This document shows, piece by piece, positions 559 through 53,289 of a stretch of DNA of 64,000 nt (within the stretch, counting starts at the first letter, position 1; the number at the start of each line of letters is the position of its first letter). The position numbers were made by a program, and so were the translations under genes. The notes under the pieces are model-generated. The model did no database searches. It was given only the letters and a program-made list of their open reading frames with translations, and was not told where the DNA came from. The stretch is from Candidatus Wolfebacteria bacterium RIFOXYB1_FULL_54_12. Lineage in GTDB: Bacteria > Patescibacteriota > Minisyncoccia > UBA6257 > UBA9933. The DNA lies in contig MGIT01000001.1 in assembly GCA_001793895.1 (NCBI GenBank), positions 106,508 through 170,507 on the forward strand, in the 5' to 3' direction.

Positions 559-628
559 TGTCATCCTGAACTCGTTTCAGGATCTTATTGTCCATAAACG
601 AGATTCCGGCTCGTAGGCCGGAATGACA
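559..628. repeat. TGTCATTCC nested-palindrome element (composite, 18 bp spacer)
   Basis: tgtcatcctgaactcgtttcaggatc ttattgtccataaacgag attccggctcgtaggccggaatgaca. Confidence 0.85.
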
Positions 629-812
629 GCTCCTAACTCAAATCCCTTATAGAATACCCGTTAAACGTACCTTTGTCATCTTTCTTGCAATGTATCGACG
701 TTCAACGTCGATACAATCAATATTTGCGTCTTGCAATAACGCAAATATTGCCATTATTTAGCCATTACTTGCTTAAATTCAATTGAGCGACATCGAATGT
801 CGCTCATATTCA

Positions 813-1958
813 TCATAAATTCAAATCCCCATTCGCCTCAATTTTATACTTCTTGCCACGCAAATAGTCGATATATCCCGAAACGGCAATCATCAACGCA
901 TTATCGGTAGAAAATTCGCTCACGATCAACAGTGGTCGATCTTTCTTTAGCGTGAACTTCTTTTCGATTGCTTCCGTAAACAAAGCACGCAAGGTGCGGT
1001 TGGCCGAAACTCCGCCCGAGATCATAATGGACTTCGCACCGAATTCTTCTACCGCGCGGAGCGTCTTTTTGATCAGTACATCCGCCGCCGCCTTTTGAAA
1101 ACTCGCGGCAATATCCGCTTTCGGAATACTTTTCCCCGCTTTCGTCAGATCGCGGATATAATACAGCACAGAGGTCTTCAGGCCGGAAAAACTGAAATTA
1201 TAATTTTTATGCCCGATCATCGGACGCGGGAAATCGATCGCCATCGGGTTGCCATCTTTCGCCAAGCGTTCGATTTCAGGCCCGCCCGGATACGGGAGGC
1301 CAATCAAACGCGCAACCTTGTCGAACGCCTCCCCCACCGCATCGTCAACCGTCTCGCCCAATTTTTTAAAATGGGTCAGGTCGTCCATTCTCAACAAAAT
1401 GGTATGACCCCCGCTGATGATCAACGCGATCGCGGGGAATATCCCCGCATTGTCATTCCCGCGGAGGCGGGAATCCACATCCTTACTTACCAAAAAACTA
1501 TATAAGTGCCCCTCCAAATGATTAGTGGGCACCAGCGGCTTGCCATATTTGGCCGCAAGCTCCTTTGCAAATTCAATGCCGGTCCACAATGCAGGTTCCA
1601 AACCAGGCCCAACGGTCACGGTAATGAAATCTACCCGATTCATAAAATCAGCCTCCCCCGCATTGTCATTCCCGCCCTTCTCTTTGTCATTCCCGCGGAG
1701 GCGGGAATCCACCACTATTTTATCAACAATCTCTTTAAATAATAGTGGCAAATTCTCCAAATGCGCGCGCTTTGCCAATCCCGGCACTACGCCGCCATAC
1801 GGCTGGTGCAGCTTGATCTGCGACGCGACCACATCGCCATGTACCTCAAACTTCGGCTTTTCCAAACCCCCGCTCGCCGTAACAAAAGAAAGGGCTGTTT
1901 CATCACAGCTCGTTTCAATCGACAAGATATACACCTTTTGTTTCTTCTCTAAAGACAT
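813..1958 (-). CDS. tsaD: tRNA N6-adenosine threonylcarbamoyltransferase TsaD (Kae1/Gcp family). It carries two in-frame repeat-element insertions.
   Basis: The 381 aa ORF reads MSLEKKQKVYILSIETSCDETALS...HLEGHLYS...GGVSANRTLR. It is longer than a typical TsaD of about 340 aa. The extra segments VDSRLRGNDNAG and VDSRLRGNDKEKGGNDNAG are exact translations of the palindromic repeat. Confidence 0.9.
   Translation of the reverse strand: MSLEKKQKVYILSIETSCDETALSFVTASGGLEKPKFEVHGDVVASQIKLHQPYGGVVPGLAKRAHLENLPLLFKEIVDKIVVDSRLRGNDKEKGGNDNAGEADFMNRVDFITVTVGPGLEPALWTGIEFAKELAAKYGKPLVPTNHLEGHLYSFLVSKDVDSRLRGNDNAGIFPAIALIISGGHTILLRMDDLTHFKKLGETVDDAVGEAFDKVARLIGLPYPGGPEIERLAKDGNPMAIDFPRPMIGHKNYNFSFSGLKTSVLYYIRDLTKAGKSIPKADIAASFQKAAADVLIKKTLRAVEEFGAKSIMISGGVSANRTLRALFTEAIEKKFTLKKDRPLLIVSEFSTDNALMIAVSGYIDYLRGKKYKIEANGDLNL
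1451..1475. repeat. TGTCATTCC-family A-module inserted in frame in tsaD
   Basis: tgtcattcccgcggaggcgggaatc, which encodes DSRLRGND on the coding strand. Confidence 0.85.
1664..1709. repeat. TGTCATTCC-family A-module with a partial tandem duplication, inserted in frame in tsaD
   Basis: tgtcattcccgcccttctctttgtcattcccgcggaggcgggaatc. Confidence 0.85.
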
Positions 1959-2079
1959 AGCGAAATATATTTTAGCTTATCGCACCTTGCAGAACAATGC
2001 AAAAATCCATTAGCCATAAAGAAGAGGGCTTTAGCCCTCTTCTTATCCATAAACTATGAACTGTTGGCTGTGAACTTTT

Positions 2080-2376
2080 TTATATCCCCCAATGTCGTAC
2101 TCCTTTCTTTTCATAGCGGATGATGCCGGAAAGCACCAGCCCTACGCCCAAAAAACCGAACAGGTTAATAACGATCAATGCAATGTTGTGCAACAAAACG
2201 CTGTACAGTAGCAACACAAAATATCCGAATGAAAGGATGCTGTAGGTCAACAACGAAACATCCTTTGCACTGCGCCGTTTATATATTTTTAACGCTTGCG
2301 GAATATTGGCCAAACCCATAACAATTCCCATGAGTCCCGCCAATGAAGCAAATAGTTGAGTAAAGTCGATCATCAA
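2080..2376 (-). CDS. small membrane protein with a PQ-loop, SemiSWEET-like
   Basis: 98 aa with three predicted TM segments. A PQ motif (IPQALKIYKRRSAKDVSL) sits after the first TM. Confidence 0.5.
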   Translation of the reverse strand: MMIDFTQLFASLAGLMGIVMGLANIPQALKIYKRRSAKDVSLLTYSILSFGYFVLLLYSVLLHNIALIVINLFGFLGVGLVLSGIIRYEKKGVRHWGI

Positions 2377-2380
2377 TTTC

Positions 2381-2456
2381 TGTCATTCCCGTCCGCCAGC
2401 CGGCGGAGGAATCTATTTATAGAGTACTGGATTCCGGCTCGGAGGCCGGAATGACA
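2381..2456. repeat. TGTCATTCC nested-palindrome element (composite)
   Basis: tgtcattcccgtccgccagccggcggaggaatc tatttatagagtactgg attccggctcggaggccggaatgaca. Confidence 0.85.
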
Positions 2457-2548
2457 ATGCGGTGCCTGCAATAAGCAAAATGCCCATGTGGTTGAAGGAG
2501 GATAAAAAGAGCCCTCCTCCTGATGCCACATGGGCATTTTGCGATCAG

Positions 2549-6655: not shown

Positions 6656-6732
6656 TGGGGGTGCCCAGAGGGTATCGAACCCTCGACCTTCGGTACCACA
6701 AACCGACGTTCTACCACTGAACTATGGGCACC
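6656..6732 (-). tRNA. tRNA-His (GTG)
   Basis: Cloverleaf read from the reverse complement: acceptor GGTGCCC/GGGCACC, anticodon loop ttGTGgt, T-loop GGTTCGATACC. CCA is encoded. Confidence 0.8.
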
Positions 6733-6834
6733 ATGTACAATGTGGTCATTATAATAACCCGTTTGTTCATAAAAAACAAGCAAGAAAAAGCCCGGCCAAT
6801 AAACAGCCGGGCGTGGGTACCACAGAAACGTCAG

Positions 6835-7599
6835 TCAGAAAAGTGCACGAAAGATCCGGTCGCGCATCTTCCTATCGTCAAGTGCGATGACTTCTTCATA
6901 CAGCGTTACCAGATCATAGACCAGCTTGGCCCGATCGGTATACAACCGAAGGTCTTCGATGCGCCCGGCAGATACCATGCATTGCCCGCTCGCGGTAAAC
7001 GATGCCCGTGCGGCACTTTTTACCATGGCCAAGGTTCCGCACTCGCCTTGCATGCACTCAAGTTCATGGACCTTGTACGGAAAGCACTCGGAATGAAAAT
7101 CGCTTGCCTGAAACGCACTTTGCCCCGGATCATGCCGGATGAACTTGAATGCCTTCCCGTTTCCGGTGTAAAGAAATTTGATGTTTCCCGCGGTATCGGC
7201 CGGCGAGCTGCTCAAAGCGCCGCCGGTAAACACCGTGATGGCGACGTTGGTCGCAATACACGCTTTACCCTGACGCTCGACCGTCATAACCGTGCGTATC
7301 ACATCCGTCCTGCTTGCCCACATGGATATGGGCGTGATCGCGGCACCATTACGCAACCGCTGTCCGATCGCACGGCGGGTAAGCATTTCGATACTGCTCA
7401 ATCGCTGGGGGCTGGGATTGCCCCGCGCAGTCGCGCGCAATATCCTGCACACTCCATCCAATAAACTCTGCATCGACGATTCCTCCTCTCTTTCGGATTC
7501 CGTGATACTGAATATGTAAACAGAACTGCACCTATTTAACCCCACAATTATGTAAAAGTCAATAATAATCGTTTTATAACAAAAAAAGGGTTCCCTCAC
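6835..7599 (-). CDS. hypothetical protein between the tRNA genes; the true start is probably the internal MQSLLDGV
   Basis: 254 aa ORF. Its composition is more protein-like than the overlapping plus-strand ORF 6724..7464. No recognizable motif. Confidence 0.35.
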   Translation of the reverse strand: MREPFFCYKTIIIDFYIIVGLNRCSSVYIFSITESEREEESSMQSLLDGVCRILRATARGNPSPQRLSSIEMLTRRAIGQRLRNGAAITPISMWASRTDVIRTVMTVERQGKACIATNVAITVFTGGALSSSPADTAGNIKFLYTGNGKAFKFIRHDPGQSAFQASDFHSECFPYKVHELECMQGECGTLAMVKSAARASFTASGQCMVSAGRIEDLRLYTDRAKLVYDLVTLYEEVIALDDRKMRDRIFRALF

Positions 7600-7606
7600 A
7601 GAATCC
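7578..7606 (-). terminator. hairpin plus T-run downstream (minus-strand sense) of the tRNA-Phe 3'-end paralog
   Basis: aaaaaggg ttccctcacagaatcc tttttt. The loop motif CCTCACA is shared with the tRNA-Phe terminator at 7801..7830. Confidence 0.35.
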
Positions 7607-7621
7607 TTTTTTGTTTATTCA

Positions 7622-7775
7622 AATCCCTTTCGGTGCCGCGGGAGGGAGTTGCCTACAAGTCTCGCTTCGCCGCCGCTCAGCGAGCTCGCAGGCCGCCCCT
7701 CGCGATGTGCCCTGCTGGGCCGCATATCGCTGCGGTCTTAAACTCCCCACGCGGGCAAAGCAGTTTGCCCGCTCC
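7622..7775 (-). ncRNA. candidate structured RNA or att-site remnant. It is a 154 nt GC-rich segment closed by a GGTGCCG/CGGCACC stem, and it reuses the 3' 20 nt of tRNA-Phe.
   Basis: The segment has internal palindromes (gcgagctcgc, and gcgggcaaa-ctgc-tttgcccgc). Its GC content is far above the surrounding sequence. It shares a 38 bp exact direct repeat with the tRNA-Phe 3' flank. Confidence 0.2.
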
Positions 7776-7800
7776 ACGGCACCAACCAGATAAAAATAAA

Positions 7801-7830
7801 AAACATACTCCTCACAAGTATGTCTTTTAT
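7801..7830 (-). terminator. rho-independent terminator downstream of tRNA-Phe
   Basis: acatact-cctcaca-agtatgt, followed by a T-run on the minus strand. Confidence 0.5.
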
Positions 7831-7848
7831 TTTATTCAAATCCCTTTC

Positions 7849-7922
7849 GGTGCCGCGGGAGGGAGTTGAACCCCCGACGCTTGCCTCTTCAGGGCAACGC
7901 TCTACCGCTGAGCTACCGCGGC
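7849..7922 (-). tRNA. tRNA-Phe (GAA)
   Basis: Reverse complement reads GCCGCGGTAGCTCAGCGGTAGAGCGTTGCCCTGAAGAGGCAAGCGTCGGGGGTTCAACTCCCTCCCGCGGCACC. The anticodon loop is cTGAAga. Confidence 0.85.
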
Positions 7923-7998
7923 TTATACACCTATTCAAGATGTGCAATCATTATACATGGTTGGAATTTTTTTTCAATCCCAATCCCCTGTTATTGGT

Positions 7999-8033
7999 TA
8001 TAGGTTATTAGTTATTGGTTATCTTAGTCGGAG
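7999..8033. repeat. degenerate heptamer tandem tract (GGTTATN)n
   Basis: gttattggttataggttattagttattggttat. Confidence 0.6.
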
Positions 8034-8037
8034 AGCC

Positions 8038-8108
8038 GGGAATCGAACCCGGACCATATGCTCCCAAAGCATACATACTACCACTATACTACTCTCCGTT
8101 TGACAACT
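8038..8108 (-). tRNA. tRNA-Pro (TGG)
   Basis: Reverse complement reads CGGAGAGTAGTATAGTGGTAGTATGTATGCTTTGGGAGCATATGGTCCGGGTTCGATTCCCGGCTCTCCGA. The anticodon loop is ttTGGga. Confidence 0.8.
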
Positions 8109-8168
8109 GTTGCAGTTTGTCGCTTTCTTAGTATACTGAAATAGTCACAAAAGTAAATGCATTTGCAC

Positions 8169-8240
8169 GCCCCTGTAGTTCAATGGATAGAACAGGAGAC
8201 TTCTAATCTCCCAATATAGGTCCGATTCCTATCGGGGGCA
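8169..8240 (+). tRNA. tRNA-Arg (TCT)
   Basis: GCCCCTGTAGTTCAATGGATAGAACAGGAGACTTCTAATCTCCCAATATAGGTCCGATTCCTATCGGGGGCA. The anticodon loop is ctTCTaa. Confidence 0.8.
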
Positions 8241-15439: not shown

Positions 15440-15470
15440 TTTCTTTCAGAGCTGTGCCATCCCCGCGCTC

Positions 15471-15533
15471 TGTCATTCCCGCGGAGGCGGGAATCTATTT
15501 AATACTGGATTCCCGCCTCCGCAGGGATGATAC
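15471..15533. repeat. TGTCATTCC nested-palindrome element: composite of two A-modules with a 13 bp spacer; the right end is degenerate
   Basis: tgtcattcccgcggaggcgggaatc tatttaatactgg attcccgcctccgcagggatga. Confidence 0.8.
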
Positions 15534-15563
15534 CGTCTCTAATTAATACATTACTCAGCGCAT

Positions 15564-15654
15564 TGTCATTCCGGCCTAAGCCTGTCCGCCAACTGGAGGA
15601 AGCCGGAATCTTGTTGAAAGAACTCGAGATCCCGTGTCGAGGCACGGGATGACA
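15564..15654. repeat. TGTCATTCC nested-palindrome element: composite with an 18 bp spacer ending cgag
   Basis: tgtcattccggcctaagcctgtccgccaactggaggaagccggaatc ttgttgaaagaactcgag atcccgtgtcgaggcacgggatgaca. Confidence 0.8.
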
Positions 15655-15749
15655 TCGGAGAGCGACACAGGAAGCAATCGGAATGAATTTATTAGGGATG
15701 GCATGGCAGCTACAAAAAATCGCCGAATATCATTCGACGATTTTTATCG

Positions 15750-16073: not shown

Positions 16074-16117
16074 ATCACTTAAAGATACCTGAAGACCCTT
16101 AAAATGTCAACAGAATT

Positions 16118-16189
16118 GTCATTCCCGCGAAGGCGGGAATCCACTACGTTCATATAGATCCCTCCGCCAGTCGGCGGACGGGAATGACA
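16118..16189. repeat. TGTCATTCC nested-palindrome element (composite)
   Basis: tgtcattcccgcgaaggcgggaatc cactacgttcatatagatc cctccgccagtcggcggacgggaatgaca. Confidence 0.8.
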
Positions 16190-16321
16190 GAAATAACCTG
16201 CACCCTATCCGAAAAATTGGAAAAATGCCGTCCACGCCAAGTACTTCCGCAAGCTTCGGGACACCCTCCGTTGATGTTCAATGATTTTATTTCTACCAAG
16301 GTCAAATCGGAAACAGCCTAT

Positions 16322-17235: not shown

Positions 17236-17286
17236 GGCTAAAATCTATTTTTCTATCGTTTTATTATTATGCAAACTTCGCTTATT

Positions 17287-17356
17287 TGTCATTCCGGCCT
17301 CCGAGCCGGAATCTTACCGTTTAACCGCGAGATCCTGAATCAAGTTCAGGATGACA
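17287..17356. repeat. TGTCATTCC nested-palindrome element (composite, 18 bp spacer)
   Basis: tgtcattccggcctccgagccggaatc ttaccgtttaaccgcgag atcctgaatcaagttcaggatgaca. Confidence 0.85.
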
Positions 17357-17373
17357 GTCGTAGACGCATCATC

Positions 17374-19408: not shown

Positions 19409-21829
19409 CTAATAAGTCGAATAGGCGTAGTCAAACACGGCATGAGCTACTGTCTCTAAACTTTTAGCACTACATTTATCGAGCGTATCGCCAGTCGTAT
19501 GATATGGCGGGTATTCAAAATCAATCAACAGGAAACTCGGAATTCCAGCTCGATTGAGCGGGGTGTGATCATCTTGGACACTTTGCCCAACCTTATCTTG
19601 AAAAACGTGGCTGTCCACTTTTTGCGCAATACTCCAAAATGCGTCCGCTTGAGACTGGGCATTTTGCACGGATGATTGCTCCTTGTAAATTCTCAAGTCT
19701 TTATCGCACACCATATCAAGAACAAGTGCGGATACCGGTATATTATTCCCATAAAGTTCGCTCAAATGTTCGGAAAAATAAGTAGAACCGAGAGGTCTCC
19801 AATTGCTATAATCACTGCCTTGATTTATATCTCCCTCTTCTCCATCAAAGAAAACGATGTCCACGCCAACACTCGGTATCACATGAGAATTGCCGAGTAT
19901 CCGCGCTAATTCCACAAGGACGGCAACACCCGAAGCAGAGTCGTTGCCCCCTGGCACTGGTTGATCTTTGTATACGTGATCCTTATCCGCAAGTTTTTTA
20001 CTGTCATAATGTGTCGCTAAAATAATGCGCCGTTCTTGGGTTGGGTATAGACGGCCTATGATATTCGATAATTTATGGATTTTACCGTCTGTCCCTTTGT
20101 AATCCCACGATTGTGTAATTACTTCGTTGGTTTGTTCTTTCATCTCCGCAATTAGAAATTTCTGCACGTTTTCATGCCCGGGTGCGCTCATGTGGCGCGG
20201 CCCATACCTTAGTTGTTGGTTTATCACGGCAAGCATTTCGTTGCCATCAATAAACGGTTTTTCCTTAAAAGTACGCCGGAGAACTTCGGACGTTAAGTAC
20301 TCAACCGGAGAAAAATTGTCGGTGAGAATTGGGTATGGAGACAAATTAAATCTGTCCAAGTTGATAACTTTATTTCGAAGCGAGCTAATGATTGAGTTCT
20401 CATTTTGCAGAATTGAAGCCGCGCTCAAATCAATTTTTTTATTACCATTCCATCCAACCAAAATAATATTTTGGGAATCTGTTTTTCCGGGAGTTTCAAC
20501 CGCAAAAAAATAACTATTTGGAAAAACACTTTGAAAAGTTTTTATCTCCGCAAAAATAAGAGATGGCTCTTGTCTTGATAAATCTCCGATTAAATTAGCG
20601 ATAAACAATCCATCGTCAGATAATTTCTCTTTTGCGATGGTAAAAAATTCCTGCGTTGTAAAGTGAGCAGGAATGGAAAAAAGAGAATGGTACGCATCGC
20701 TAAATATAAAATCATATTTTTTATTCGAATCCCAAAGCAGGCGACGACCATCTTCAGTATAATTGTATAGATTTGAATTGTCTTCTACGGCAAAATATTC
20801 TTTTGCTAATGCCAATAACGATGGTTCAATTTCTGAAACATCGAGTGTCGCGTTTGGCAACTCCGCTAAAAGGGCCTTCGGTATAGAATATGCGCCACCG
20901 CCTATAACTAAAGCATTTCGTACGTCCGGCTTGAAAACTTTGTAGAGAGAATAGTATTTCGTGTATTCATAAACGAGATCGGCCGGGTTATCCGAATCGA
21001 GAAACATCGCACCGGAACCACTCCGATCCTGTTGAAAAAATCTTGTCGGCCTGCTTTCAAACATACCATCGTAGATGGTGATTTTTTCGTAAATACCATC
21101 TTTGCTGTACAATACATCGCCTTTTGTTTGCTGAACCGCAACAATGGTAATAAGGGCTAAAGTGACAACGGCAACCAAAGACTGGGTTAGGCGTTTTTTG
21201 TCAAAACCAAATACCGTAAGTGGGATAAATCCGAGAAGGAAGAGAACAACTCCTGTGGCAATAAAAATATGGTCTATGCCAAAATTAGGTATAAGCACAA
21301 AACCCGCAAGTAGACTGCCAATGATACTCCCCAGAGTAGACCAAAAAAATATTTTACCCGAAACACTTCCCACTCCCTGCTCTGGTGCTTGAAGACTCTG
21401 TAATTTTATAGCATAGGGCGACAAAGTGCCGAGCAATAACGCAGGAACAAGGAACAGCAGCAAAGAAGAGATCAGTGGTCCGCTTGTAAGTGAAAGATTT
21501 TTGCTTAAAATTGGAAGAATTATCAAACCAAAAAAATGAAATACAAGGACAAGAAGACCGCTTACGAGAATTATCCCGAAGAACCACCGTAACGATGGGT
21601 GACGATCTGCAAATTTTCCGCCCACATAATATCCTATGCTAAGAGCTGCGAGTATAACACTTATTATACTTGATACAGTAAAAATTGTGTTTCCATAGTG
21701 AGGCGAAAGGACACGGACGGCAACGACTTCAATAATCAAAACACACGCCCCAGTGATAAATACTGAGATTGGCAGCAAATTTTGCTTTAAAAATTTGTTC
21801 ATGTATTTAATCATGGTAGCAGTTTGCAT
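19409..21829 (-). CDS. fusion protein: polytopic membrane domain plus spermidine/spermine synthase-like methyltransferase fold plus C-terminal M28 zinc peptidase domain
   Basis: 806 aa. The N-terminus has about 8 TM segments. The ALVIGGGAYSIPKALLAELPNATLDVSEIEPSLLALAKEYF segment is spermidine-synthase-like. The C-terminus has GGNDSASGVAVLVELARIL and VFFDGEE (M28 metal ligands). Confidence 0.55.
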   Translation of the reverse strand: MQTATMIKYMNKFLKQNLLPISVFITGACVLIIEVVAVRVLSPHYGNTIFTVSSIISVILAALSIGYYVGGKFADRHPSLRWFFGIILVSGLLVLVFHFFGLIILPILSKNLSLTSGPLISSLLLFLVPALLLGTLSPYAIKLQSLQAPEQGVGSVSGKIFFWSTLGSIIGSLLAGFVLIPNFGIDHIFIATGVVLFLLGFIPLTVFGFDKKRLTQSLVAVVTLALITIVAVQQTKGDVLYSKDGIYEKITIYDGMFESRPTRFFQQDRSGSGAMFLDSDNPADLVYEYTKYYSLYKVFKPDVRNALVIGGGAYSIPKALLAELPNATLDVSEIEPSLLALAKEYFAVEDNSNLYNYTEDGRRLLWDSNKKYDFIFSDAYHSLFSIPAHFTTQEFFTIAKEKLSDDGLFIANLIGDLSRQEPSLIFAEIKTFQSVFPNSYFFAVETPGKTDSQNIILVGWNGNKKIDLSAASILQNENSIISSLRNKVINLDRFNLSPYPILTDNFSPVEYLTSEVLRRTFKEKPFIDGNEMLAVINQQLRYGPRHMSAPGHENVQKFLIAEMKEQTNEVITQSWDYKGTDGKIHKLSNIIGRLYPTQERRIILATHYDSKKLADKDHVYKDQPVPGGNDSASGVAVLVELARILGNSHVIPSVGVDIVFFDGEEGDINQGSDYSNWRPLGSTYFSEHLSELYGNNIPVSALVLDMVCDKDLRIYKEQSSVQNAQSQADAFWSIAQKVDSHVFQDKVGQSVQDDHTPLNRAGIPSFLLIDFEYPPYHTTGDTLDKCSAKSLETVAHAVFDYAYSTY

Positions 21830-21887
21830 ATGATTAGTCTATCCGCCATTGTATTTTTTAAGCGAGGACTATTTTCAAAATATTTCA

Positions 21888-21934
21888 CAAAAACAAAGAC
21901 CACGCATTTTAATGCATGGTTTTTGTTTTTGTGG
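21888..21934 (-). terminator. rho-independent terminator, copy 2 of the duplicated hairpin; it abuts the tRNA-Ala 3' end
   Basis: aaaaacaaagaccacgcatt-ttaa-tgcatggtttttgtttttgtgg. Confidence 0.55.
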
Positions 21935-22002
21935 ACCTAGGCGGAATCGGACCGCCGTCTCAGCAATGCGAATGCCGTGTTCTACCACTAGACTATAGGC
22001 CC
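21932..22002 (-). tRNA. tRNA-Ala (CGC)
   Basis: Reverse complement reads GGGCCTATAGTCTAGTGGTAGAACACGGCATTCGCATTGCTGAGACGGCGGTCCGATTCCGCCTAGGTCCA. G3:U70 is present. The anticodon loop is ttCGCat. Confidence 0.8.
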
Positions 22003-22052: not shown

Positions 22053-22173
22053 TGTCATATACCGGCGTCCGCCCGCAACGATGTAGCAACTTCTGGCGGG
22101 GAGGCCGGAATCCGGTAGTATATTTCCACAAAGACACTTAGTACTCTGGATCCCGATTTTCATCGGGATGACA
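22053..22173. repeat. TGTCATTCC-family element, degenerate composite
   Basis: tgtcatataccggcgtccgccc...ggcggggaggccggaatc ... tagtactctgg atcccgattttcatcgggatgaca. Confidence 0.6.
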
Positions 22174-22188
22174 ATACAAAAACTTGGT

Positions 22189-23457
22189 TTATTCGGGAAT
22201 TTCAACAAAATGGTAATTCTTCTTACCGCGCTTCACGATGATATATGTATTAAACAGGATATCGTCGTTACTCAATAGGGCGTCAACATCGGATATTTTC
22301 TTTCCGCTTATTTCAATCGCTCCGGATTCGATATCTTCCCGTGCCTGTCGCTTCGACAGCGGCGTCTTCCATGCAAGCGACGCGAGAAAATCGACGACGG
22401 TCATATCTTTGATGCTTGCGGCATCAATCTTTTGTACGGCAACATTCCCGACGAACAATGCTTCGCATTTCTTTTTGTCCGTCACAATCTCCGAAATATC
22501 TCCGCCAAACAGCGCCTCGGAAATATTCTGTGCCTGCTTCAGCGCTTCTTTCCCATGCACGAATTCCGTCACCGCTTCCGCAAGCGCCTTGTGTGCTTCG
22601 CGCTTCTCGGGTGCGGCCTGCAACGATCGTTCCAGTTCTGCAATTTCTTCAAGCGTCAAAAATGTATAGTATTTCAAAAATTTCACCACATCGGCGTCGT
22701 CAACATTCAACCAAAATTGGTAAAAATGATAGGGCGAGGTCAATGTCGCGTCGAGCCAAACAGCTCCCCCTTCGCTCTTGCCCATCTTCTTTCCGTCTGC
22801 CTTTGTGACGAGCGGCATGGTCAAGCCATACACTTCTTTGTGCAACGCCTTGCGAACCAACTCGATGCCCGCGGTAATATTTCCCCACTGGTCGGAACCG
22901 CCGATCTGCAATGCCACTTCGCGCGATTCATGCAGTTTCAAAAAATCATACGCCTGCAACAACATGTAGCTGAACTCGGTGAACGAGATGCCCGTTTCCA
23001 ATCGGCTCTTTACCGATTCCTTGGCAAGCATTTCATTGACGGTAAAATATTTTCCCGCATCGCGCAAAAAATCAACAAGCGGCATTTGCCCGAGCCAATC
23101 GTAATTGTTCACATATTGCGCATGTTTGAAATTAAATTGTCCGATTTGCTTTTCCAACCCGGCAGTCATCGATTCCACAACATCGCTTGTGTTAAGCGTA
23201 CGCTCCTGTGCCTTTCCGCTCGGGTCGCCGATCAGGCCCGTGGCCCCGCCCACCAGCATCACCGGCACCATGCCGGCATCCTCAAGCCGCTTGGCAAATA
23301 CGATACCCAAAAGACTGCCCACATGCAGGCTCGCCGCCGTCGGGTCGAAACCCATGTAAAACAGCCCGCCTTTGCGGTCTACGAGCGCCCGGAGCGCTTC
23401 TTCGTTGGATACCTGATAGATCAGTCCTCGTTCCTTTAATTCATCCAAAATATGCAT
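22189..23457 (-). CDS. tyrS: tyrosine--tRNA ligase
   Basis: HIGH-like HVGSL, KMSKS-like KMGKS, and a C-terminal S4 domain. Confidence 0.9.
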   Translation of the reverse strand: MHILDELKERGLIYQVSNEEALRALVDRKGGLFYMGFDPTAASLHVGSLLGIVFAKRLEDAGMVPVMLVGGATGLIGDPSGKAQERTLNTSDVVESMTAGLEKQIGQFNFKHAQYVNNYDWLGQMPLVDFLRDAGKYFTVNEMLAKESVKSRLETGISFTEFSYMLLQAYDFLKLHESREVALQIGGSDQWGNITAGIELVRKALHKEVYGLTMPLVTKADGKKMGKSEGGAVWLDATLTSPYHFYQFWLNVDDADVVKFLKYYTFLTLEEIAELERSLQAAPEKREAHKALAEAVTEFVHGKEALKQAQNISEALFGGDISEIVTDKKKCEALFVGNVAVQKIDAASIKDMTVVDFLASLAWKTPLSKRQAREDIESGAIEISGKKISDVDALLSNDDILFNTYIIVKRGKKNYHFVEIPE

Positions 23458-29009: not shown

Positions 29010-29026
29010 GTATTGTTTATAATCTC

Positions 29027-29088
29027 TGTCATTCCCGCGGAGGCGGGAATCTATTTAATACTGGATTCCCGCCTCCGCGGGAATGACA
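29027..29088. repeat. TGTCATTCC nested-palindrome element: canonical perfect composite
   Basis: tgtcattcccgcggaggcgggaatc tatttaatactgg attcccgcctccgcgggaatgaca. The terminal inverted repeats are perfect. Confidence 0.9.
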
Positions 29089-29106
29089 ACCTTTCTGATT
29101 CACTTA

Positions 29107-30843: not shown

Positions 30844-30852
30844 AGGGCTATT

Positions 30853-30990
30853 TGTCATTCCGAATTTATTTCGGAATCTCGTGGTAAAATGCCAAGATCC
30901 TGTATCCGTCAGCCGACGAACGGAAGGATCTGTTTTGCATTGTCATACCGGCGGGTGAGGGCCTGTCCTCGACCTGATCGGGGACCTGTC
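30853..30990. repeat. TGTCATTCC-family elements, degenerate cluster
   Basis: tgtcattccgaatttatttcggaatc ... atcctgtatccgtcagccgacgaacggaaggatc ... tgtcataccggcgggtgagggcc... Confidence 0.6.
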
Positions 30991-37115: not shown

Positions 37116-37658
37116 TTAGAATGGCCCAAAATTGAAGGTCGCCCGTTCCGGCTCGTCGCTCCCCCACTGCGGAACCAACAAATAGCCCTGCGCGCGGGCA
37201 AGCTCATATAGATCTTTTGTTATGCGCACATCGTGCAAACAATAATCGGCAAGCTCCTCCAGCCTGCCCTCGCGATACATCACCGGAGCCTCAAGGCTAT
37301 GGTGCGTTTTTTGCGTTCCCAAATTTATTTTTGCCAAAAGATCCAAGCTGATCCGTCTTCCTAATTGCATTTCAATGTCATCGAGCAGATCGATGCGCGG
37401 CACGCCGAACAGGTTGAACTTGCAGTGCTTATTCAATACGGGAATGTCGAATCGGGTAATACTGAACCCGATGATGCATTCGGCATCGCGTAACAGTTCA
37501 CTGCATTCGATCATGTGGTGCTCGTCGAACGAAATATATTTGTCTTGCGCGTAGGAAAAAAGACCCACCACGGAAACCTGCAGGTCGTTGAAATTATCCC
37601 GCCCCACCTCGGCGAGCGTATTTTTTGTCTCGATGTCGAAAACGATAAAGTCGCGCAT
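37116..37658 (-). CDS. DEDDh 3'-5' exonuclease (DnaQ/RNase T-like)
   Basis: Exo I (VFDIETKN), Exo II (IGFSITRFDIPVL), and Exo III (YCLHDVRITKDLY). The listed start at 37736 translates a heptamer repeat. Confidence 0.65.
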   Translation of the reverse strand: MRDFIVFDIETKNTLAEVGRDNFNDLQVSVVGLFSYAQDKYISFDEHHMIECSELLRDAECIIGFSITRFDIPVLNKHCKFNLFGVPRIDLLDDIEMQLGRRISLDLLAKINLGTQKTHHSLEAPVMYREGRLEELADYCLHDVRITKDLYELARAQGYLLVPQWGSDEPERATFNFGPF

Positions 37659-37700: not shown

Positions 37701-37741
37701 AAAGAAATCGGGATGCAAGGGTGAAACAGAAAGCAAACATA

Positions 37742-37847
37742 TGTCATCCTGATCCGTCAGCCGACGGATTCAGGATCTCCCCGCAAAAACACGAGATTCC
37801 GGCTCCCCGTATCGTGGTACGGGGCAGGCTCCGGGCCAGAATGACAA
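37742..37847. repeat. TGTCATTCC nested-palindrome element: composite with extra nested hairpins in both loops
   Basis: tgtcatcctgatccgtcagccgacggattcaggatc tccccgcaaaaacacgag attccggctccccgtatcgtggtacggggcaggctccgggccagaatgaca. Confidence 0.8.
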
Positions 37848-37865
37848 CACATAAGAGTCGATACC

Positions 37866-38874: not shown

Positions 38875-39471
38875 CTACGAAAAAGACCCTTGCAAGGTTC
38901 CGTCCTTGCCGGGGGCTTTTTTATTTAGTTCTATTTTATGCCGCACATCATGGCAATACACGATCGGCGCATCCGTTCGCTTCAACAGGATCGAGCACTT
39001 CTCGACCTTGCTCGGAGAAATAACCACTTCTAACTTTTCTTTCGTCTGCAAAAATTTTACCAGCCCGGCGTAATCACCATCGCTCGTGACAAGGACTTGT
39101 TTGTCGCAATTATTCTCAAATGCATCTACTGACGATTGCAATACGAGATCGGCATCGCAATTTCCCTTAGCCTCGCCCGAGCCATTATAAACGACCTCCT
39201 TGAATATCAATGTAAAGCCTGCCTTTTGCAAAGCGGTATAAAGATCTTTTTGCTTGGGAACAAGCCCTATAAAATAATACGCACAAACAACGCCATACTT
39301 ATCCGAAAGCCACCTTCTTAAGCGATACATGTCAACGCTCCAGCCGTCATTGCCCGTTCCGCGATACAAATTATTCCCGTCAATATACGCAAAATTTTTC
39401 TTGTAGCGATTCATGCCATACTCAGTATACCAAAAATAAAACCAAAGCCCCATGTCAAACTCAAAAACCAA
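38875..39471 (-). CDS. NYN-domain (LabA-like) protein
   Basis: NFAYIDGNNLY...VLVTSDGDYAGLV. Confidence 0.6.
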   Translation of the reverse strand: MVFEFDMGLWFYFWYTEYGMNRYKKNFAYIDGNNLYRGTGNDGWSVDMYRLRRWLSDKYGVVCAYYFIGLVPKQKDLYTALQKAGFTLIFKEVVYNGSGEAKGNCDADLVLQSSVDAFENNCDKQVLVTSDGDYAGLVKFLQTKEKLEVVISPSKVEKCSILLKRTDAPIVYCHDVRHKIELNKKAPGKDGTLQGSFS

Positions 39472-45326: not shown

Positions 45327-45412
45327 TGTCATTCCGAGCCTGCTGTCATCCTGAACTCGTTTCAGGATCTCGCGTACAAACAGTGAGCTTCTGAAATAAA
45401 TTCAGAATGACA
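45327..45412. repeat. TGTCATTCC nested-palindrome element: composite with an extra truncated left end
   Basis: tgtcattccgagcc tgctgtcatcctgaactcgtttcaggatc tcgcgtacaaacagtgag cttctgaaataaattcagaatgaca. Confidence 0.8.
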
Positions 45413-45425
45413 CTTTAAAAAATAT

Positions 45426-45458
45426 TGTCATTCCCGTCCGCCCACCAGCAGAGGAATC
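45426..45458. repeat. TGTCATTCC-family half element (left module, degenerate)
   Basis: tgtcattcccgtccgcccaccagcagaggaatc. Confidence 0.6.
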
Positions 45459-45471
45459 CAGTACCCCGCAT

Positions 45472-45496
45472 TGTCATTCCCGCGAAAGCGGGAATC
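45472..45496. repeat. TGTCATTCC-family solo A-module
   Basis: tgtcattcccgcgaaagcgggaatc. Confidence 0.8.
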
Positions 45497-45513
45497 TAGT
45501 ACACTAAAAAAGG

Positions 45514-47770: not shown

Positions 47771-47796
47771 AATGGTATTAGTATAGCATAACTTTT

Positions 47797-47824
47797 TGTC
47801 ATTCCGGCGGAGGCCGGAATGACA
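47797..47824. repeat. TGTCATTCC-family minimal single-module element
   Basis: tgtcattccggcggaggccggaatgaca. Confidence 0.85.
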
Positions 47825-47836
47825 ACATAAGAAGTT

Positions 47837-47904
47837 TGTCATCCTGAACTCGTTTCAGGATCTCATGGTAGTGCGATGAGATTCCGGCCTCCGCCGGAAT
47901 GACA
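47837..47904. repeat. TGTCATTCC nested-palindrome element (composite, 18 bp spacer)
   Basis: tgtcatcctgaactcgtttcaggatc tcatggtagtgcgatgag attccggcctccgccggaatgaca. Confidence 0.85.
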
Positions 47905-47937
47905 AATGCGCGGTTCTATTAATAGAACCGCGCATTC
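47904..47937. promoter_or_regulatory. perfect 34 bp palindrome abutting the repeat element
   Basis: aatgcgcggttctattaatagaaccgcgcatt. Confidence 0.3.
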
Positions 47938-51494: not shown

Positions 51495-51538
51495 GTCTTA
51501 GAAAATAAAAGGCCATTGTCTGGCGCTTATGTAAATTC

Positions 51539-51563
51539 TGTCATTCCCGCGGAGGCGGGAATC
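51539..51563. repeat. TGTCATTCC-family solo A-module upstream of gyrB
   Basis: tgtcattcccgcggaggcgggaatc. Confidence 0.8.
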
Positions 51564-51656
51564 CATTACCATTATGATAGCAAAAACGAGCCAAAAAAGC
51601 CAGCGGCCAGAGGAGTAAAGCCCCTTCAAAACAACCGGGACGCTACAACAAAAAAA

Positions 51657-51692
51657 GCCCGATGGCACACCCTATAAAGGTGCCCACCGGGC
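51657..51692 (-). terminator. candidate rho-independent terminator
   Basis: An imperfect hairpin, gcccgatggcacc...ggtgcccaccgggc, with a T7 run on the minus strand. Confidence 0.35.
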
Positions 51693-51714
51693 TTTGCCCT
51701 AAAAAGAAAGGGGG

Positions 51715-52329: not shown

Positions 52330-52426
52330 ACCCTCCTCTTTCTATGGATATATATGTAAAATAAGAGCTAACTCAAACTAACACCTGCGTTGCGCACTGT
52401 CAAACGATATTTAAAAAAATATTTTG

Positions 52427-52497
52427 AGCGGGTAAAGGGAATCGAACCCTCGCTTCAACCTTGGGAAGGTTGCGCACTACCACTATGCAATACCCGC
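52427..52497 (-). tRNA. tRNA-Gly (CCC)
   Basis: Reverse complement reads GCGGGTATTGCATAGTGGTAGTGCGCAACCTTCCCAAGGTTGAAGCGAGGGTTCGATTCCCTTTACCCGCT. The anticodon loop is ttCCCaa. Confidence 0.75.
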
Positions 52498-52880
52498 AAA
52501 AACGATACAGGCATTATAAAGAACAACCGGACAAAAGTGAAGTCATGGAAATAAAAAAACGACCTCTATGGTCGACGCGAATAAAGAAAACAAACCCGGT
52601 TGATGGCGATCGAACGAACCCAGTATTCCACGCAAGAAGAATGTAAGAATTCCCATATGAAATTGTCTGCCCATGCGCACAATAAAATACTGTATTTAGT
52701 ATAGGGCAACCAAATAAGATATACAACACCCGCACACCTTTTCTGTAACCCCGGCGGAGCTCGCCACGTGGAAAGTAGAAACTTTCTTTACGTGGGCCGG
52801 AGGAGTCCAGCGTTTTCCGCGATAGCGGTAGCTGGACATTCAGACCCTAACAATGCCGGGAATGACGATGCGAGATTGGG

Positions 52881-52987
52881 TGTCATCCCCGTCCGTCCGC
52901 CAGCCGGCGGACGGAGGGATCCATGGTTTTTGCAGTAGTAGGGCTGGGATACCCAGACTCTGGATTCCCGTTTTCACGGGAATGACA
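52881..52987. repeat. TGTCATTCC nested-palindrome element (composite, long spacer)
   Basis: tgtcatccccgtccgtccgccagccggcggacggagggatc ... gactctgg attcccgttttcacgggaatgaca. Confidence 0.75.
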
Positions 52988-53054
52988 ATACCGAGGTGAC
53001 AAAGCAAGAAAATACTCATACAAAAAGGTTGTGACCCCGGCGGAGCTCGCCACG

Positions 53055-53084
53055 TGGTCCGCCAATGGCGGATCGGAATGACAC
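53055..53084. repeat. TGTCATTCC-family right-end fragment
   Basis: tccgccaatggcggatcggaatgaca. Confidence 0.5.
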
Positions 53085-53151
53085 CATCCACGCATTGTCA
53101 TGTCGACGCCTACCCGCCTTGGTCGGGAAGGCCGGTATCCGGTGTCTTGCA

Positions 53152-53289
53152 TTGTCATTCCGAGAGTAGCGGAGCGGAGCCAAGGAATCTGTTTTTAGTA
53201 CGGATCCCTGCTCCACCTCCGCCAGCTGGCGGATATGGCGGCACGCGGTCGATTTAATTCCGCTTCGCTATATTGCACTCGGGATGACA
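53152..53289. repeat. TGTCATTCC-family element, degenerate long composite
   Basis: tgtcattccgagagtagcggagcggagccaaggaatc ... ctccgccagctggcggatatggcgg ... cgggatgaca. Confidence 0.55.

What the first reader, a model, noticed from the sequence alone, without database searches (positions are those of the whole stretch)
559..53289. Dense family of nested-palindrome miniature elements (TGTCATTCC...GGAATGACA), about 20 copies in 64 kb
**What the sequence shows.** At least 20 intergenic sites, plus 2 sites inside tsaD, carry elements built from the same parts.
- Terminal inverted repeats: (T)TGTCAT(T)CC on one end and GGAATGACA on the other.
- One or two internal hairpin modules whose stems start ATTCC or ATCC and end GGAAT or GGAT. 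Examples: ATTCCCGCGGAGGCGGGAAT, ATTCCGGCGGAGGCCGGAAT, ATCCTGAACTCGTTTCAGGAT, ATTCCCGTCCGCCAGCCGGCGGACGGGAAT, ATCCCGTGCCTCGACACGGGAT.
- Composite copies join two modules through one of two stereotyped spacers: a 13 bp spacer (tatttaatactgg) or an 18 bp spacer ending (c)gag.
- Minimal copies are 28 bp (47797..47824). The canonical perfect copy is 62 bp (29027..29088). Some copies carry extra hairpins nested inside the loops (37742..37847).

**Interpretation.** No transposase or integrase is present in the window, so these look non-autonomous (MITE/REP-like). The module ATTCCC-N8-GGGAAT has the same form as Neisseria dRS3. Insertion in frame into genes resembles Rickettsia palindromic elements. 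The gene content here does not look neisserial or rickettsial. If this genome is uncharacterized, this would be a new abundant repeat family. It may nucleate rearrangements, provide terminators or promoters, or be targeted by a site-specific recombinase encoded elsewhere.
Basis: partly seen in the sequence, partly recalled or inferred. Interest (0 to 1): 0.85.

Follow-up and report, generated by a model that had tools for sequence, protein, structure and literature searches.

The report
Known tagged hairpin repeats in Wolfebacteria
This stretch of a groundwater Candidatus Wolfebacteria (CPR) genome carries about 36 copies of a short tagged DNA hairpin from an already described pan-bacterial repeat family (Neisseria dRS3/NTS, 'CGTC' REPs, Rickettsia RPE-4/6), which elsewhere is cut by small Ssn nucleases, so it is a new host for a known element, not a new kind of element.

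Summary
TGTCATYCC occurs 28 times against 1 expected, and a covariance model finds about 30 full units.

The "terminal inverted repeats plus modules" are better read as inverted dimers of one oriented unit. That unit is a 5' TGTC tag, an 8-bp stem beginning AT, a 4-6 nt loop and a C(C/T)N tail. This is the published CGTC-1 REP. It matches the 28-nt Neisseria NTS, which contains dRS3, with 1-3 mismatches at 9 sites.

The exact 24-mer GTCATTCCCGCGGAGGCGGGAATC occurs in genomes of more than ten phyla. In at least 120 metagenome contigs, units of this type sit directly before an ssnA-type GIY-YIG gene.

The host is Candidatus Wolfebacteria from the Rifle aquifer. Relatives show filled and empty orthologous spacers. 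They also show patchy in-frame insertions at two loops of TsaD, so the elements are gained and lost.

No ssnA, RAYT or IS110 gene lies in the 64 kb window or the 9 kb upstream. Whether this genome has a cognate nuclease is untested.

Verdict: a new member (new host lineage, high density) of a known kind, of modest interest.

The parts
556..631 (.). Inverted heterodimer between ftsW and tsaD. It joins a TGTC-ATCCTGAA/CTCGT unit (556-588, +) and a TGTC-ATTCCGGC unit (598-631, -), with tags outward and a 19-nt spacer.
   Evidence: Covariance-model hits of 36.8 and 38.6 bits; alignment A2.
813..1958 (-). tsaD gene (381 aa) carrying two in-frame insertions made of units.
   Evidence: Pfam TsaD. Alignment to T. 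maritima TsaD 6n9a shows extra residues 82-107 and about 159-169. Translation. Relatives with and without the inserts.
1448..1479 (+). Single unit TGTCATTCCCGCGGAGGCGGGAATCCAC inside tsaD. Read on the opposite strand it encodes VDSRLRGNDNAG (insertion site 2).
   Evidence: Covariance-model hit of 41.2 bits; three mismatches to the NTS consensus.
1664..1713 (+). One and a half units in tandem inside tsaD: a truncated unit at 1664-1684 and a full unit at 1685-1712. They encode VVDSRLRGNDKEKGGNDNAG (insertion site 1).
2378..2459 (.). Inverted heterodimer between the SWEET gene and PPDK. It joins a nested-hairpin unit (2378-2417, +) and an ATTCCGGC unit (2426-2459, -). The spacer is a variant of TATTTAATACTG.
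   Evidence: Covariance-model hits of 21.4 and 40.1 bits; alignment A3; fold.
15468..15535 (.). Copy of the 62-bp homodimer (spacer TATTTAATACTG) with a decayed right arm, between the sigma-factor gene and rplU.
   Evidence: The orthologous spacer is empty in L140 and L141.
15561..15657 (.). Inverted heterodimer with a nested hairpin in the left unit and a 19-nt spacer.
   Evidence: Covariance-model hits of 32.9 and 32.8 bits; alignment A2.
16114..16192 (.). Inverted dimer between rplU and the Ser_hydrolase gene. It joins a GAAG-loop unit (+) and a nested CCGCCAGTCGGCGG unit (-).
   Evidence: Covariance-model hits of 41.0 bits and 14.6 bits, the latter at E = 0.22; two mismatches to the NTS consensus.
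17284..17359 (.). Inverted heterodimer (ATTCCGGC unit + 19-nt spacer + ATCCTGAA unit) between the 111-aa and 598-aa hypothetical genes.
   Evidence: The spacer is about 20 nt and empty in L140 and L141. In L139 it holds a different dimer.
22145..22176 (-). Single unit TGTCATCCCGATGAAAATCGGGATCCAG just downstream of tyrS.
   Evidence: Covariance-model hit of 39.7 bits. Relatives L140 and L141 have an ordinary terminator hairpin here. L139 has a different unit behind the same tag.
29024..29091 (.). Canonical perfect 62-bp inverted homodimer (29027-29088) between efp and the DUF87 ATPase gene.
   Evidence: The spacer is empty in L140 and L141. A 60/62-identical dimer sits 1.8 kb away in L140.
30850..30882 (+). 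Single A+T-rich unit TGTCATTCCGAATTTATTTCGGAATCTC, about 10 nt upstream of the likely DUF87 start codon.
   Evidence: Covariance-model hit of 40.5 bits. The spacer is empty in L141. In L140 the same position holds the right arm of a dimer.
37739..37849 (.). Inverted heterodimer with extra hairpins nested in both loops and a 19-nt spacer CTCCCCGCAAAAACACGAG.
   Evidence: Covariance-model hits of 21.7 and 27.0 bits.
45327..45500 (.). Cluster of about five units between ykuD and scpA: a truncated tag, an ATCCTGAA unit, a reverse A+T-rich unit, a nested unit and a GAAA-loop unit. The last has one mismatch to the Neisseria NTS.
47794..47907 (.). The 28-bp doubly tagged palindrome (47797-47824), followed by an inverted heterodimer (47834-47907).
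51536..51567 (+). Single unit upstream of gyrB.
   Evidence: Covariance-model hit of 41.2 bits.
52859..53289 (.). Largest cluster, about six units including nested ones, in the 1-kb spacer between a tRNA gene and a lexA-like gene.
   Evidence: One strain assembly (L016) lacks 287 bp of it between two copies of a 23-bp direct repeat.

Best explanation
These are the Candidatus Wolfebacteria representatives of the CGTC-tagged REP superfamily. The same family is known as Neisseria dRS3/NTS and as the 'Ssn-related motifs' (SRM).

**Shown: the unit.** The unit is an oriented single-strand hairpin with four parts:
- an unpaired 5' tag, always TGTC here;
- an 8-bp stem beginning A-T, T-A;
- a 4-6 nt loop;
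- a short tail, C-C-A or C-T-C.

Units occur as singletons, as inverted dimers with tags outward, and as clusters.

**Shown: turnover.** The units have been gained and lost in this lineage. This has happened in intergenic spacers and, in frame, in two surface loops of TsaD.

**Inferred: the partner.** By analogy with Chenal et al. 2025, the tagged strand, when single-stranded during replication, repair or DNA uptake, is bound and nicked just 5' of the tag by a roughly 95-aa single-domain GIY-YIG nuclease (Ssn). That nuclease would be encoded elsewhere in the genome, typically inside its own unit-ssnA-unit cassette.

**Inferred: effect.** The repeats then behave as selfish or domesticated sites that modulate recombination of incoming or single-stranded DNA. 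They are not classical transposons.

**Unknown.** How new copies are made is not known in the literature or here.
For: **Sequence identity with the described family**
- Nine sites match the 28-nt NTS consensus with 1-3 mismatches, against 0 expected.
- The strict SRM expression matches 4 times against 0.24 expected.
- All 21 aligned units have TGTC, an AT-start 8-bp stem and the tail. This is as defined for CGTC-1, including the stated TGTC variant.
- Stems keep pairing through changes on both sides at 5 of 8 positions.
- Units fold as ssDNA hairpins.

**Distribution**
- The exact 24-mer occurs in at least 120 stretches of GTDB genomes from more than ten phyla. Fifteen of these stretches are labelled as CPR lineages.
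- The flanks across these genomes give Y-[24-mer]-CAG, which is the NTS consensus.

**Link to ssnA**
- The same unit flanks a GIY-YIG gene on both sides in L134, L143 and L287.
- In those hits, 111 of 113 ORFs are GIY-YIG homologues, and 65 of 94 full-length ORFs have an inverted unit within 80 nt of the stop.

**Mobility**
- Four orthologous spacers are empty in relatives L140 and/or L141 and filled in the window and, where that region is present, in L139.
- Covariance-model hits number 12, about 5, 2 and 0 in the same 21-kb region of four genomes of decreasing relatedness.
- Presence and absence are patchy at two TsaD loops across 14 orthologues.
- A nearly identical 62-bp dimer lies at different sites in two genomes.
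Against: **No nuclease gene found**
- There is no ssnA-like gene or pseudogene in the 64 kb window, the 9 kb upstream, or 3 x 21 kb of relatives. This was tested by phmmer on ORFs and by a 120-sequence profile on six-frame translations.
- I could not reach the rest of the genome, so the nuclease partner is unverified for this organism.

**Imperfect fit to the published motif**
- Most copies fail the published strict SRM expression, because their loop is GGAG.

**Limits of the supporting tests**
- The stem statistics are biased, because units were selected for perfect outer stems.
- The metagenome scan pattern contained the YYVYI codons, so the association test is partly circular. The remainder of each protein and the downstream inverted unit are independent of the pattern.

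**Limits of the literature**
- The published role of Ssn (limiting transformation) was shown only in Neisseria meningitidis.
Confidence: 0.8

Rival explanations
1. A classical MITE family: terminal inverted repeats TGTCATTCC/GGAATGACA bound variable internal modules, and a DDE transposase encoded elsewhere moves them by cut-and-paste.
For: Many copies have inverted ends. A near-identical 62-bp composite occurs at several sites and in a second genome.
Against: About a third of units are singletons with one tag only and a non-complementary tail. No target-site duplication flanks any dimer in the flanks printed. No transposase is called in the window or in relatives' loci. The same single unit is conserved across phyla with its own orientation.
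Confidence: 0.04
2. GTAG-type REP/REPIN elements mobilised by a RAYT (IS200/IS605-like Y1 transposase).
For: The general look is the same: short tagged hairpins, inverted doublets, intergenic clusters.
Against: The tag is TGTC, not GTAG. No Y1_Tnp gene appears in any gene list. Di Nocera et al. state that CGTC REPs lack a dedicated RAYT.
Confidence: 0.02
3. The hairpins are primarily host regulatory signals (terminators, mRNA stabilisers or attenuators) conserved by selection, not mobile DNA.
For: Nearly all lie between genes transcribed in the same direction. Downstream of tyrS, a unit occupies the place where relatives have a terminator hairpin.
Against: There is no T-run after the stems. 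Units occur in both orientations and inside the tsaD reading frame. Orthologous spacers are empty in close relatives. Next to rplU, the ordinary terminator is retained alongside the insert. A secondary effect on transcripts is not excluded.
Confidence: 0.06
4. The units are attachment or target sites for a site-specific recombinase, as dRS3 is for the Piv/IS110-type recombinase of Neisseria filamentous prophages. They spread or persist for that reason.
For: [quoted passage not shown] The exact 24-mer is present on 21 IMG/VR viral contigs.
Against: No recombinase, IS110 or phage genes lie next to any unit in the window. This reading is compatible with, rather than opposed to, the Ssn reading.
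Confidence: 0.05

Closest known systems
NTS / Ssn-related motifs (SRM) with the SsnA GIY-YIG ssDNA nuclease (Chenal et al., Nat Commun 2025, PMC11893778)
   Same: The 28-nt unit is the same, with 1-3 mismatches to CGTCATTCCCGCGMAVGCGGGAATCYRG. It has an oriented 5' tag plus hairpin and forms intergenic clusters. It occurs at high copy number in a host-dependent organism, and the paper notes enrichment in symbionts. The identical unit flanks ssnA genes in other genomes.
   Different: The tag is TGTC rather than CGTC. The dominant loop is GGAG, which falls outside the published SRM expression. The host is a CPR bacterium, a group not named in the paper's text. No ssnA was found in the 73 kb I could read.
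CGTC-tagged REPs, family CGTC-1 (Di Nocera et al., BMC Genomics 2013, PMC3733652)
   Same: It has an 8-bp stem starting AT, a 4-nt loop and a CCA-type tail. The TGTC variant of the tag is explicitly described. Inverted dimers with conserved spacers or spacers with complementary ends are described, as are occasional intragenic in-frame copies.
   Different: That survey found CGTC REPs in five phyla, mostly alpha-Proteobacteria. Here several stem subfamilies (ATTCCCGC, ATTCCGGC, ATCCTGAA and nested GC-rich hairpins) coexist in one small genome.
Neisseria dRS3 / NIME arrays
   Same: The ATTCCC-N8-GGGAAT core is present at 9 sites, and units cluster in mosaics.
   Different: The host is not Neisseria. 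It has no DUS and no Correia elements. The RS segments between units are not conserved.
Rickettsia palindromic elements RPE-4 / RPE-6
   Same: In-frame insertion of the hairpin into essential genes. Per Di Nocera et al., these RPEs are themselves CGTC REPs.
   Different: Only one gene in this window (tsaD) is affected. The inserts are 12 and 26 aa.
REPINs / BIMEs with RAYT transposases
   Same: They work alike in outline: an inverted doublet of a tagged hairpin appears to be the unit that is copied, and a single-copy gene flanked by the repeats is associated with them.
   Different: The tag differs (GTAG) and the enzyme differs (HUH Y1 transposase). Neither is present here.

Membership tests
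CGTC-1 REP (Di Nocera 2013) | Unpaired 5' tag CGTC, or its described variants TGTC/CCTC | tested here: met
   TGTC is invariant in 21 of 21 aligned units and in all 26 scanned units.
CGTC-1 REP (Di Nocera 2013) | 8-bp stem with complementary A-T residues at positions 1 and 2, and a 4-nt loop | tested here: met
   Pairs 1 and 2 are A-T and T-A in 20 of 20 distinct units, and all 8 pairs are formed. The loop is 4 nt in 12 of 21 units and 5-6 nt in the rest, which resemble CGTC-2 to CGTC-4.
CGTC-1 REP (Di Nocera 2013) | Short unpaired tail fitting CCA | tested here: met
   The tail is CCA in the ATTCCCGC subfamily and CTC or CTA in the others. Across phyla the consensus is CAG after ...AATC.
NTS/SRM-Ssn system (Chenal 2025) | Sequence match to the NTS consensus or the SRM expression | tested here: met
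   Nine NTS matches at 3 or fewer mismatches against 0 expected. Four strict SRM matches against 0.24 expected. The remaining units differ in loop bases only.
NTS/SRM-Ssn system (Chenal 2025) | Forms a hairpin as single-stranded DNA, with the tag unpaired | tested here: met
   ssDNA folds give -9.5 to -17 kcal/mol for single units (z = -3 to -8) and -34.5 kcal/mol for the dimer. These are predictions only.
NTS/SRM-Ssn system (Chenal 2025) | The genome encodes a roughly 95-aa single-domain GIY-YIG (cd10448) nuclease, usually flanked by the repeats | tested here: inconclusive
   None in the window, 9 kb upstream, or the relatives' 21-kb loci. The rest of the genome could not be read. Attempts through searches found cassettes only in other organisms.
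NTS/SRM-Ssn system (Chenal 2025) | Strand-specific binding and cleavage of the ssDNA unit by the cognate Ssn | not testable with these tools
   This needs biochemistry.
Neisseria NIME/dRS3 | Occurs in Neisseria genomes together with DUS and Correia repeats, with dRS3 bounding RS segments | tested here: not met
   The host is Candidatus Wolfebacteria. DUS and Correia searches both gave 0 matches. The dRS3 core itself is present.
GTAG REP / RAYT | GTAG tag and a RAYT gene flanked by the repeats | tested here: not met
   The tag is TGTC. No Y1 transposase appears in any gene list.
MITE | Terminal inverted repeats, target-site duplication, and a related autonomous IS | tested here: not met
   Singletons lack a second end. 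No duplicated flanks are visible. No transposase gene is called.
Rfam RNA families | Match to a curated structured-RNA model | tested here: not met
   Only six tRNAs reach gathering scores in the window.

The most novel reading that the evidence does not exclude
This Wolfebacteria clade may carry a dense, recently expanding population of SRM hairpins (about 0.5 per kb) without any cognate ssnA in its roughly 1-Mb genome.

Alternatively, the copied unit may be the inverted dimer (REPIN-like), and hairpins may be overwritten behind a fixed tag. The sites downstream of tyrS and upstream of the DUF87 gene carry different hairpins behind identical tags in close relatives.

Either result would point to a copying mechanism not yet described for this family. 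Examples are nick-primed template switching between copies, or mobilisation in trans by a nuclease from the host bacterium or a phage.
Probability: 0.15. Interest if true: 0.6.

Novelty: new member of a known kind. Interest (0 to 1): 0.3.

Why it matters
It extends the dRS3/NTS/CGTC-REP superfamily to the Candidate Phyla Radiation. The density here, about 36 units in 64 kb, is high, and the host is an obligate episymbiont. That fits the published remark that very repeat-rich genomes are mostly symbionts.

CPR genomes are tiny and streamlined. Tolerating 16% of intergenic DNA as selfish hairpins, and in-frame copies inside the essential tsaD gene, is therefore noteworthy.

The Rifle time series and the several Wolfebacteria relatives with filled and empty sites offer a natural system for one open question about this family: how new copies arise.

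For annotation, the practical value is a warning. Peptides such as VIPAEAGIQ and LDSRLRGND in predicted proteins are repeat-encoded.

Tried and rejected
**Looking for the cognate nuclease of this organism. No route below found an ssnA assignable to Wolfebacteria.**
- phmmer with two GIY-YIG seeds on all ORFs of the window and loci: nothing in Wolfebacteria DNA.
- A profile of 120 SsnA homologues on six-frame translations: nothing.
- The search for homologous proteins with the L134 SsnA: 4307 hits, and none of the 120 listed is named Wolfebacteria.
- The listing of cluster members on 10 of those hits: no names returned.
- Contig look-ups of P0061, P0054 and P0132: the cassettes lie in other organisms. 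They sit beside 6PGD, inside the S10 ribosomal operon, and in a third contig with unrelated gene content.
- The metagenome scan for unit + YYVYI: only L275 carries the Wolfebacteria-type GCATT flank. Its ssnA has an in-frame TGA and its taxon is unknown.
- blastp of all cassette loci against Wolfebacteria proteins: no close relative.

**Other checks**
- Pfam on ten hypothetical ORFs of the window: no nuclease or transposase.
- Neisserial origin rejected. There is no DUS and no Correia element, and proteins are named Wolfebacteria.
- Chimeric assembly rejected.
- Rfam: only tRNAs.
- The supplements of the Ssn paper are not held in the library, so I could not check whether any CPR genome was in its tables.
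- Strain-level comparison was mostly uninformative, because all strain contigs are at least 99.75% identical. The one exception is the L016 deletion.

Full report

Yes. TGTCATYCC occurs 28 times in the window against 1.0 expected from dinucleotide-preserving shuffles, with a largest shuffle of 4. ATTCC-N10-GGAAT occurs 11 times against 0.06 expected. The most frequent 10- to 14-mers of the window are all pieces of one motif.

A structural scan looked for GTCAT followed by a perfect inverted repeat of the next 6 bases. It gives 26 hits, and only one (40984, inside mreB) is an evident chance match.

- The 28-bp palindrome at 47797-47824 is exact.
- The 62-bp copy at 29027-29088 is a perfect inverted dimer.
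- The nested copy at 37742-37847 is confirmed.

The window is not an assembly artefact. ENA, JGI and NCBI assemblies of the same population agree at 99.75-100% identity.

**2. Anatomy**

Aligning 21 simple copies shows that the repeated thing is one oriented unit, not a pair of terminal repeats. The unit has four parts:
- an invariant TGTC tag;
- an 8-bp stem that always begins A-T, T-A;
- a loop of 4-6 nt;
- then C and a short tail (CCA, CTC or CTA).

Five of the eight stem pairs change on both sides between subfamilies, and none is ever unpaired. The subfamily stems are ATTCCCGC, ATTCCGGC, ATCCTGAA, ATCCCGTG and ATTCCGAA. This statistic is biased, because I chose copies with perfect outer stems.

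Single units are predicted to fold as ssDNA hairpins with the tag left unpaired. The 62-bp dimer folds at -34.5 kcal/mol, z = -13.

There are two dimer types:
- A homodimer with the conserved 12-nt spacer TATTTAATACTG. It occurs at 29027, at 15471 and, as a variant, at 2381.
- A heterodimer with a spacer of constant length (19 nt) and constant ends but variable interior. It occurs at 556, 15561, 17284, 37739 and 47834.

A covariance model built from the 21 units finds about 30 full-length hits with E<0.05 in the window. It also finds a further cluster in the upstream flank of the scaffold, at L003 20770-21064.

My census is 33 units in 13 intergenic spacers. Twelve of the 33 spacers of at least 100 bp are occupied, and almost all occupied spacers lie between co-directional genes. 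Three more units lie at two sites in tsaD. Together the units cover about 1.27 kb, or 16% of the intergenic DNA. No duplicated flanks (target-site duplications) are visible at any dimer.

**3. Host**

Exact protein look-ups place the window on scaffold_93 of a Rifle aquifer metagenome. They name the proteins as Candidatus Wolfebacteria bacterium RIFOXYB1_FULL_54_12 / RIFOXYB2_FULL_49_7, a Candidate Phyla Radiation (Parcubacteria) organism.

The gene content is ordinary housekeeping: tsaD, PPDK, dnaB, recR, rplU, tyrS, murB, mnmA, efp, secDF, mreB, gyrB, nusG, rplK and leuS. No transposase, integrase, RAYT, IS110 or GIY-YIG domain is on record for any called gene. Ten ORFs without annotation give no Pfam match. 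There is no Neisseria DUS and no Correia element.

**4. What it is**

The unit is a described element.
- Chenal et al. 2025 (PMC11893778) showed that the Neisseria dRS3 palindrome is the core of a 28-nt oriented 'NTS', CGTCATTCCCGCGMAVGCGGGAATCYRG. They showed that NTS-like 'Ssn-related motifs' occur in many phyla. They also showed that a 94-aa single-domain GIY-YIG protein, SsnA, usually flanked by the repeats, binds and cuts the tagged strand only as ssDNA.
- Di Nocera et al. 2013 (PMC3733652) had classified the same sequences as 'CGTC-tagged REPs'. [quoted passage not shown] Inverted dimers predominate. dRS3 is a CGTC-1 REP, Rickettsia RPE-6 and RPE-4 are CGTC-1 and CGTC-4 REPs, and intragenic in-frame copies are recorded.

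The window's units fit these definitions feature by feature:
- Nine sites match the Neisseria NTS consensus with 1-3 mismatches, against 0 expected.
- The strict SRM expression matches 4 sites against 0.24 expected. The others fail only because their loop is GGAG.

**5. Distribution and link to the nuclease, tested here**

The exact 24-mer GTCATTCCCGCGGAGGCGGGAATC is the commonest variant in the window.
- The genomes span Pseudomonadota, Planctomycetota, Chloroflexota, Nitrospirota, Desulfobacterota, Cloacimonadota, Bacteroidota/Ignavibacteria, Acidobacteriota, Bdellovibrionota, Deferribacteres and others.
- Fifteen stretches come from CPR lineages.
- Across these genomes the flanks give Y-[24-mer]-C-A-G, exactly the NTS consensus.
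- A GCATT extension 5' of the tag is peculiar to the Wolfebacteria copies.

In L134 the same unit, inverted, brackets a 95-aa GIY-YIG gene inserted between recA and recX. The same architecture is seen in a Rifle organism (L143) and inside the S10 ribosomal-protein operon of another genome (L287).

Of the resulting ORFs, 111 of 113 are GIY-YIG homologues by phmmer. Of the 94 full-length ones, 65 have an inverted unit within 80 nt after the stop. The pattern itself contains five codons of the protein, so only the rest of the protein and the downstream unit count as independent evidence.

**6. Is it mobile in this lineage?**

Three relatives were fetched through their TyrRS, which is 93, 84 and 81% identical. 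In the same 21-kb region the model finds 12 units in the window, about 5 in L139, 2 in L140 and 0 in L141.

Orthologous spacers compare as follows:
- **efp-DUF87.** It holds the 62-bp dimer in the window and nothing in L140 or L141.
- **DUF8128-DUF87.** It is 15 nt and empty in L141. It holds a 60/62-identical copy of that same dimer in L140 and a different unit in the window.
- **hyp598-hyp111.** It is about 20 nt and empty in L140 and L141. It holds different dimers in L139 and the window.
- **rplU-sigma.** It keeps the rplU terminator in all four genomes. It has gained one dimer in L139 and two in the window.
- **Downstream of tyrS.** L140 and L141 have a plain terminator hairpin. The window and L139 have different hairpins behind an identical tag and identical flanks.

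One strain assembly (L016) lacks 287 bp of the 52.9-kb cluster, between two copies of a 23-bp direct repeat. This could be a real deletion or a collapsed assembly.

**7. Copies inside tsaD**

The 381-aa TsaD aligns with T. maritima TsaD (6n9a) except for two extra segments:
- residues 82-107, VVDSRLRGNDKEKGGNDNAGEADFMN;
- residues about 159-169, VDSRLRGNDNAG.

LDSRLRGND is the reverse-strand reading of the unit, and VIPAEAGIQ is the tag-strand reading.

Among 14 Wolfebacteria-clade orthologues, occupancy is patchy:
- Site 1 is occupied in six. In P0260, P0261 and P0266 a whole inverted dimer is read through as TPAEAGVQEGIDSDLRRNDN. Site 1 is empty in eight.
- Site 2 is occupied in three.
- One orthologue has only site 2, several have only site 1, and the window has both.

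This argues for repeated gain or loss at two permissive loops. The behaviour is already known for RPEs and other intragenic CGTC REPs.

**8. Mechanism, and what is inferred**

*Shown.*
- Family identity.
- Hairpin potential.
- Gain and loss among relatives.
- Physical association of this exact unit with ssnA genes in many other genomes.

*Inferred.*
- That this Wolfebacteria encodes a cognate Ssn.
- That this Ssn nicks the tagged strand when it is single-stranded.

I put the probability of the first inference at about 0.5-0.6, by analogy with the paper's figure that 81% of genomes with more than 200 SRMs have ssnA.

No ssnA gene or relic is detectable in the window, the 9 kb upstream, or the relatives' loci. 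A 120-sequence profile on six-frame translations also found nothing. I could not reach the rest of the genome.

How copies multiply is unknown in the literature. The recurrence of a near-identical dimer at different sites suggests that the dimer is a copied unit. The replacement of hairpins behind fixed tags suggests that copy-to-copy conversion occurs. Neither is proven.

**9. Verdict**

This is a real and dense repeat family that was correctly noticed.

It is not a new family. It is the CPR/Wolfebacteria instance of the CGTC-REP = NTS/SRM superfamily. I found no report of it in CPR in the searchable literature, so it counts as a new member of a known kind. Interest is modest, at 0.3.

The one open point that could raise the interest is whether these genomes lack ssnA altogether.

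Noticed in passing
window 22145-22330 versus L139 11270-11400; window 30850-30882 versus L140 2550-2581: At orthologous positions, close relatives share the tag (TGTCATCCCGA..., ...GGAATGACA) and identical outer flanks. The hairpin and the roughly 150 bp behind it are unrelated. Elements seem to be overwritten or re-inserted at the same point.
   Followed up: partly
window 52749-53058 versus L016: A 287-bp piece of the largest repeat cluster is absent from one strain assembly. It lies between two copies of the direct repeat ccccggcggagctcgccacgtgg. This may be a real deletion or a collapsed assembly.
   Followed up: partly
L134 1737-2088; L287 1680-2080; L143 5971-6320: Unit-ssnA-unit cassettes of about 350 bp sit inside otherwise conserved gene pairs: recA-recX, rplB-rpsS and after 6PGD. 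The gap between the two units is nearly constant at about 300 nt, as expected of a small mobile cassette.
   Followed up: partly
L275 (reverse strand) 1780-2230: This is the only metagenome cassette with the Wolfebacteria-type GCATT flank. Its ssnA has an in-frame TGA at codon 29 and an E-to-L change in the EHK motif, so it looks like a pseudogene. Four tandem ...GGAATGACA units follow it. The host is unknown.
   Followed up: partly
L146-L166 (IMG/VR contigs): Twenty-one viral contigs carry the exact 24-mer GTCATTCCCGCGGAGGCGGGAATC, some with up to 10 tag motifs. None of the fetched stretches encodes a GIY-YIG protein.
   Followed up: partly
L028 4100-4529: In a Paceibacterota contig, a different small GIY-YIG gene (84 aa) lies between two copies of the start of a tRNA-like sequence (ggagaggtcgcatagtgg). 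This suggests an insertion into, or duplication of, a tRNA gene.
   Followed up: no
window 20001-22000: G+C drops to 0.40 against about 0.50 elsewhere. The drop lies within the 806-aa gene with MFS, spermine-synthase and M28-peptidase matches. This gene is absent from the orthologous position in L139, L140 and L141.
   Followed up: no
window 37116-37658 and 38875-39453: Two nuclease-superfamily genes (a weak RNase_H_2 match and a NYN domain) flank the region of the nested dimer at 37739-37849. Nothing links them to the repeats.
   Followed up: no
window 6660-8240: Four tRNA genes cluster within 1.6 kb. None of the spacers around them carries a repeat unit. No unit occurs between 2.5 and 15.4 kb, or after 53.3 kb.
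   Followed up: no
window, all units: Singletons are mostly tag-on-plus-strand (about 8 against 2). The whole window has negative GC skew and genes mostly on the minus strand. There are too few singletons to tell whether orientation follows replication or transcription.
   Followed up: no
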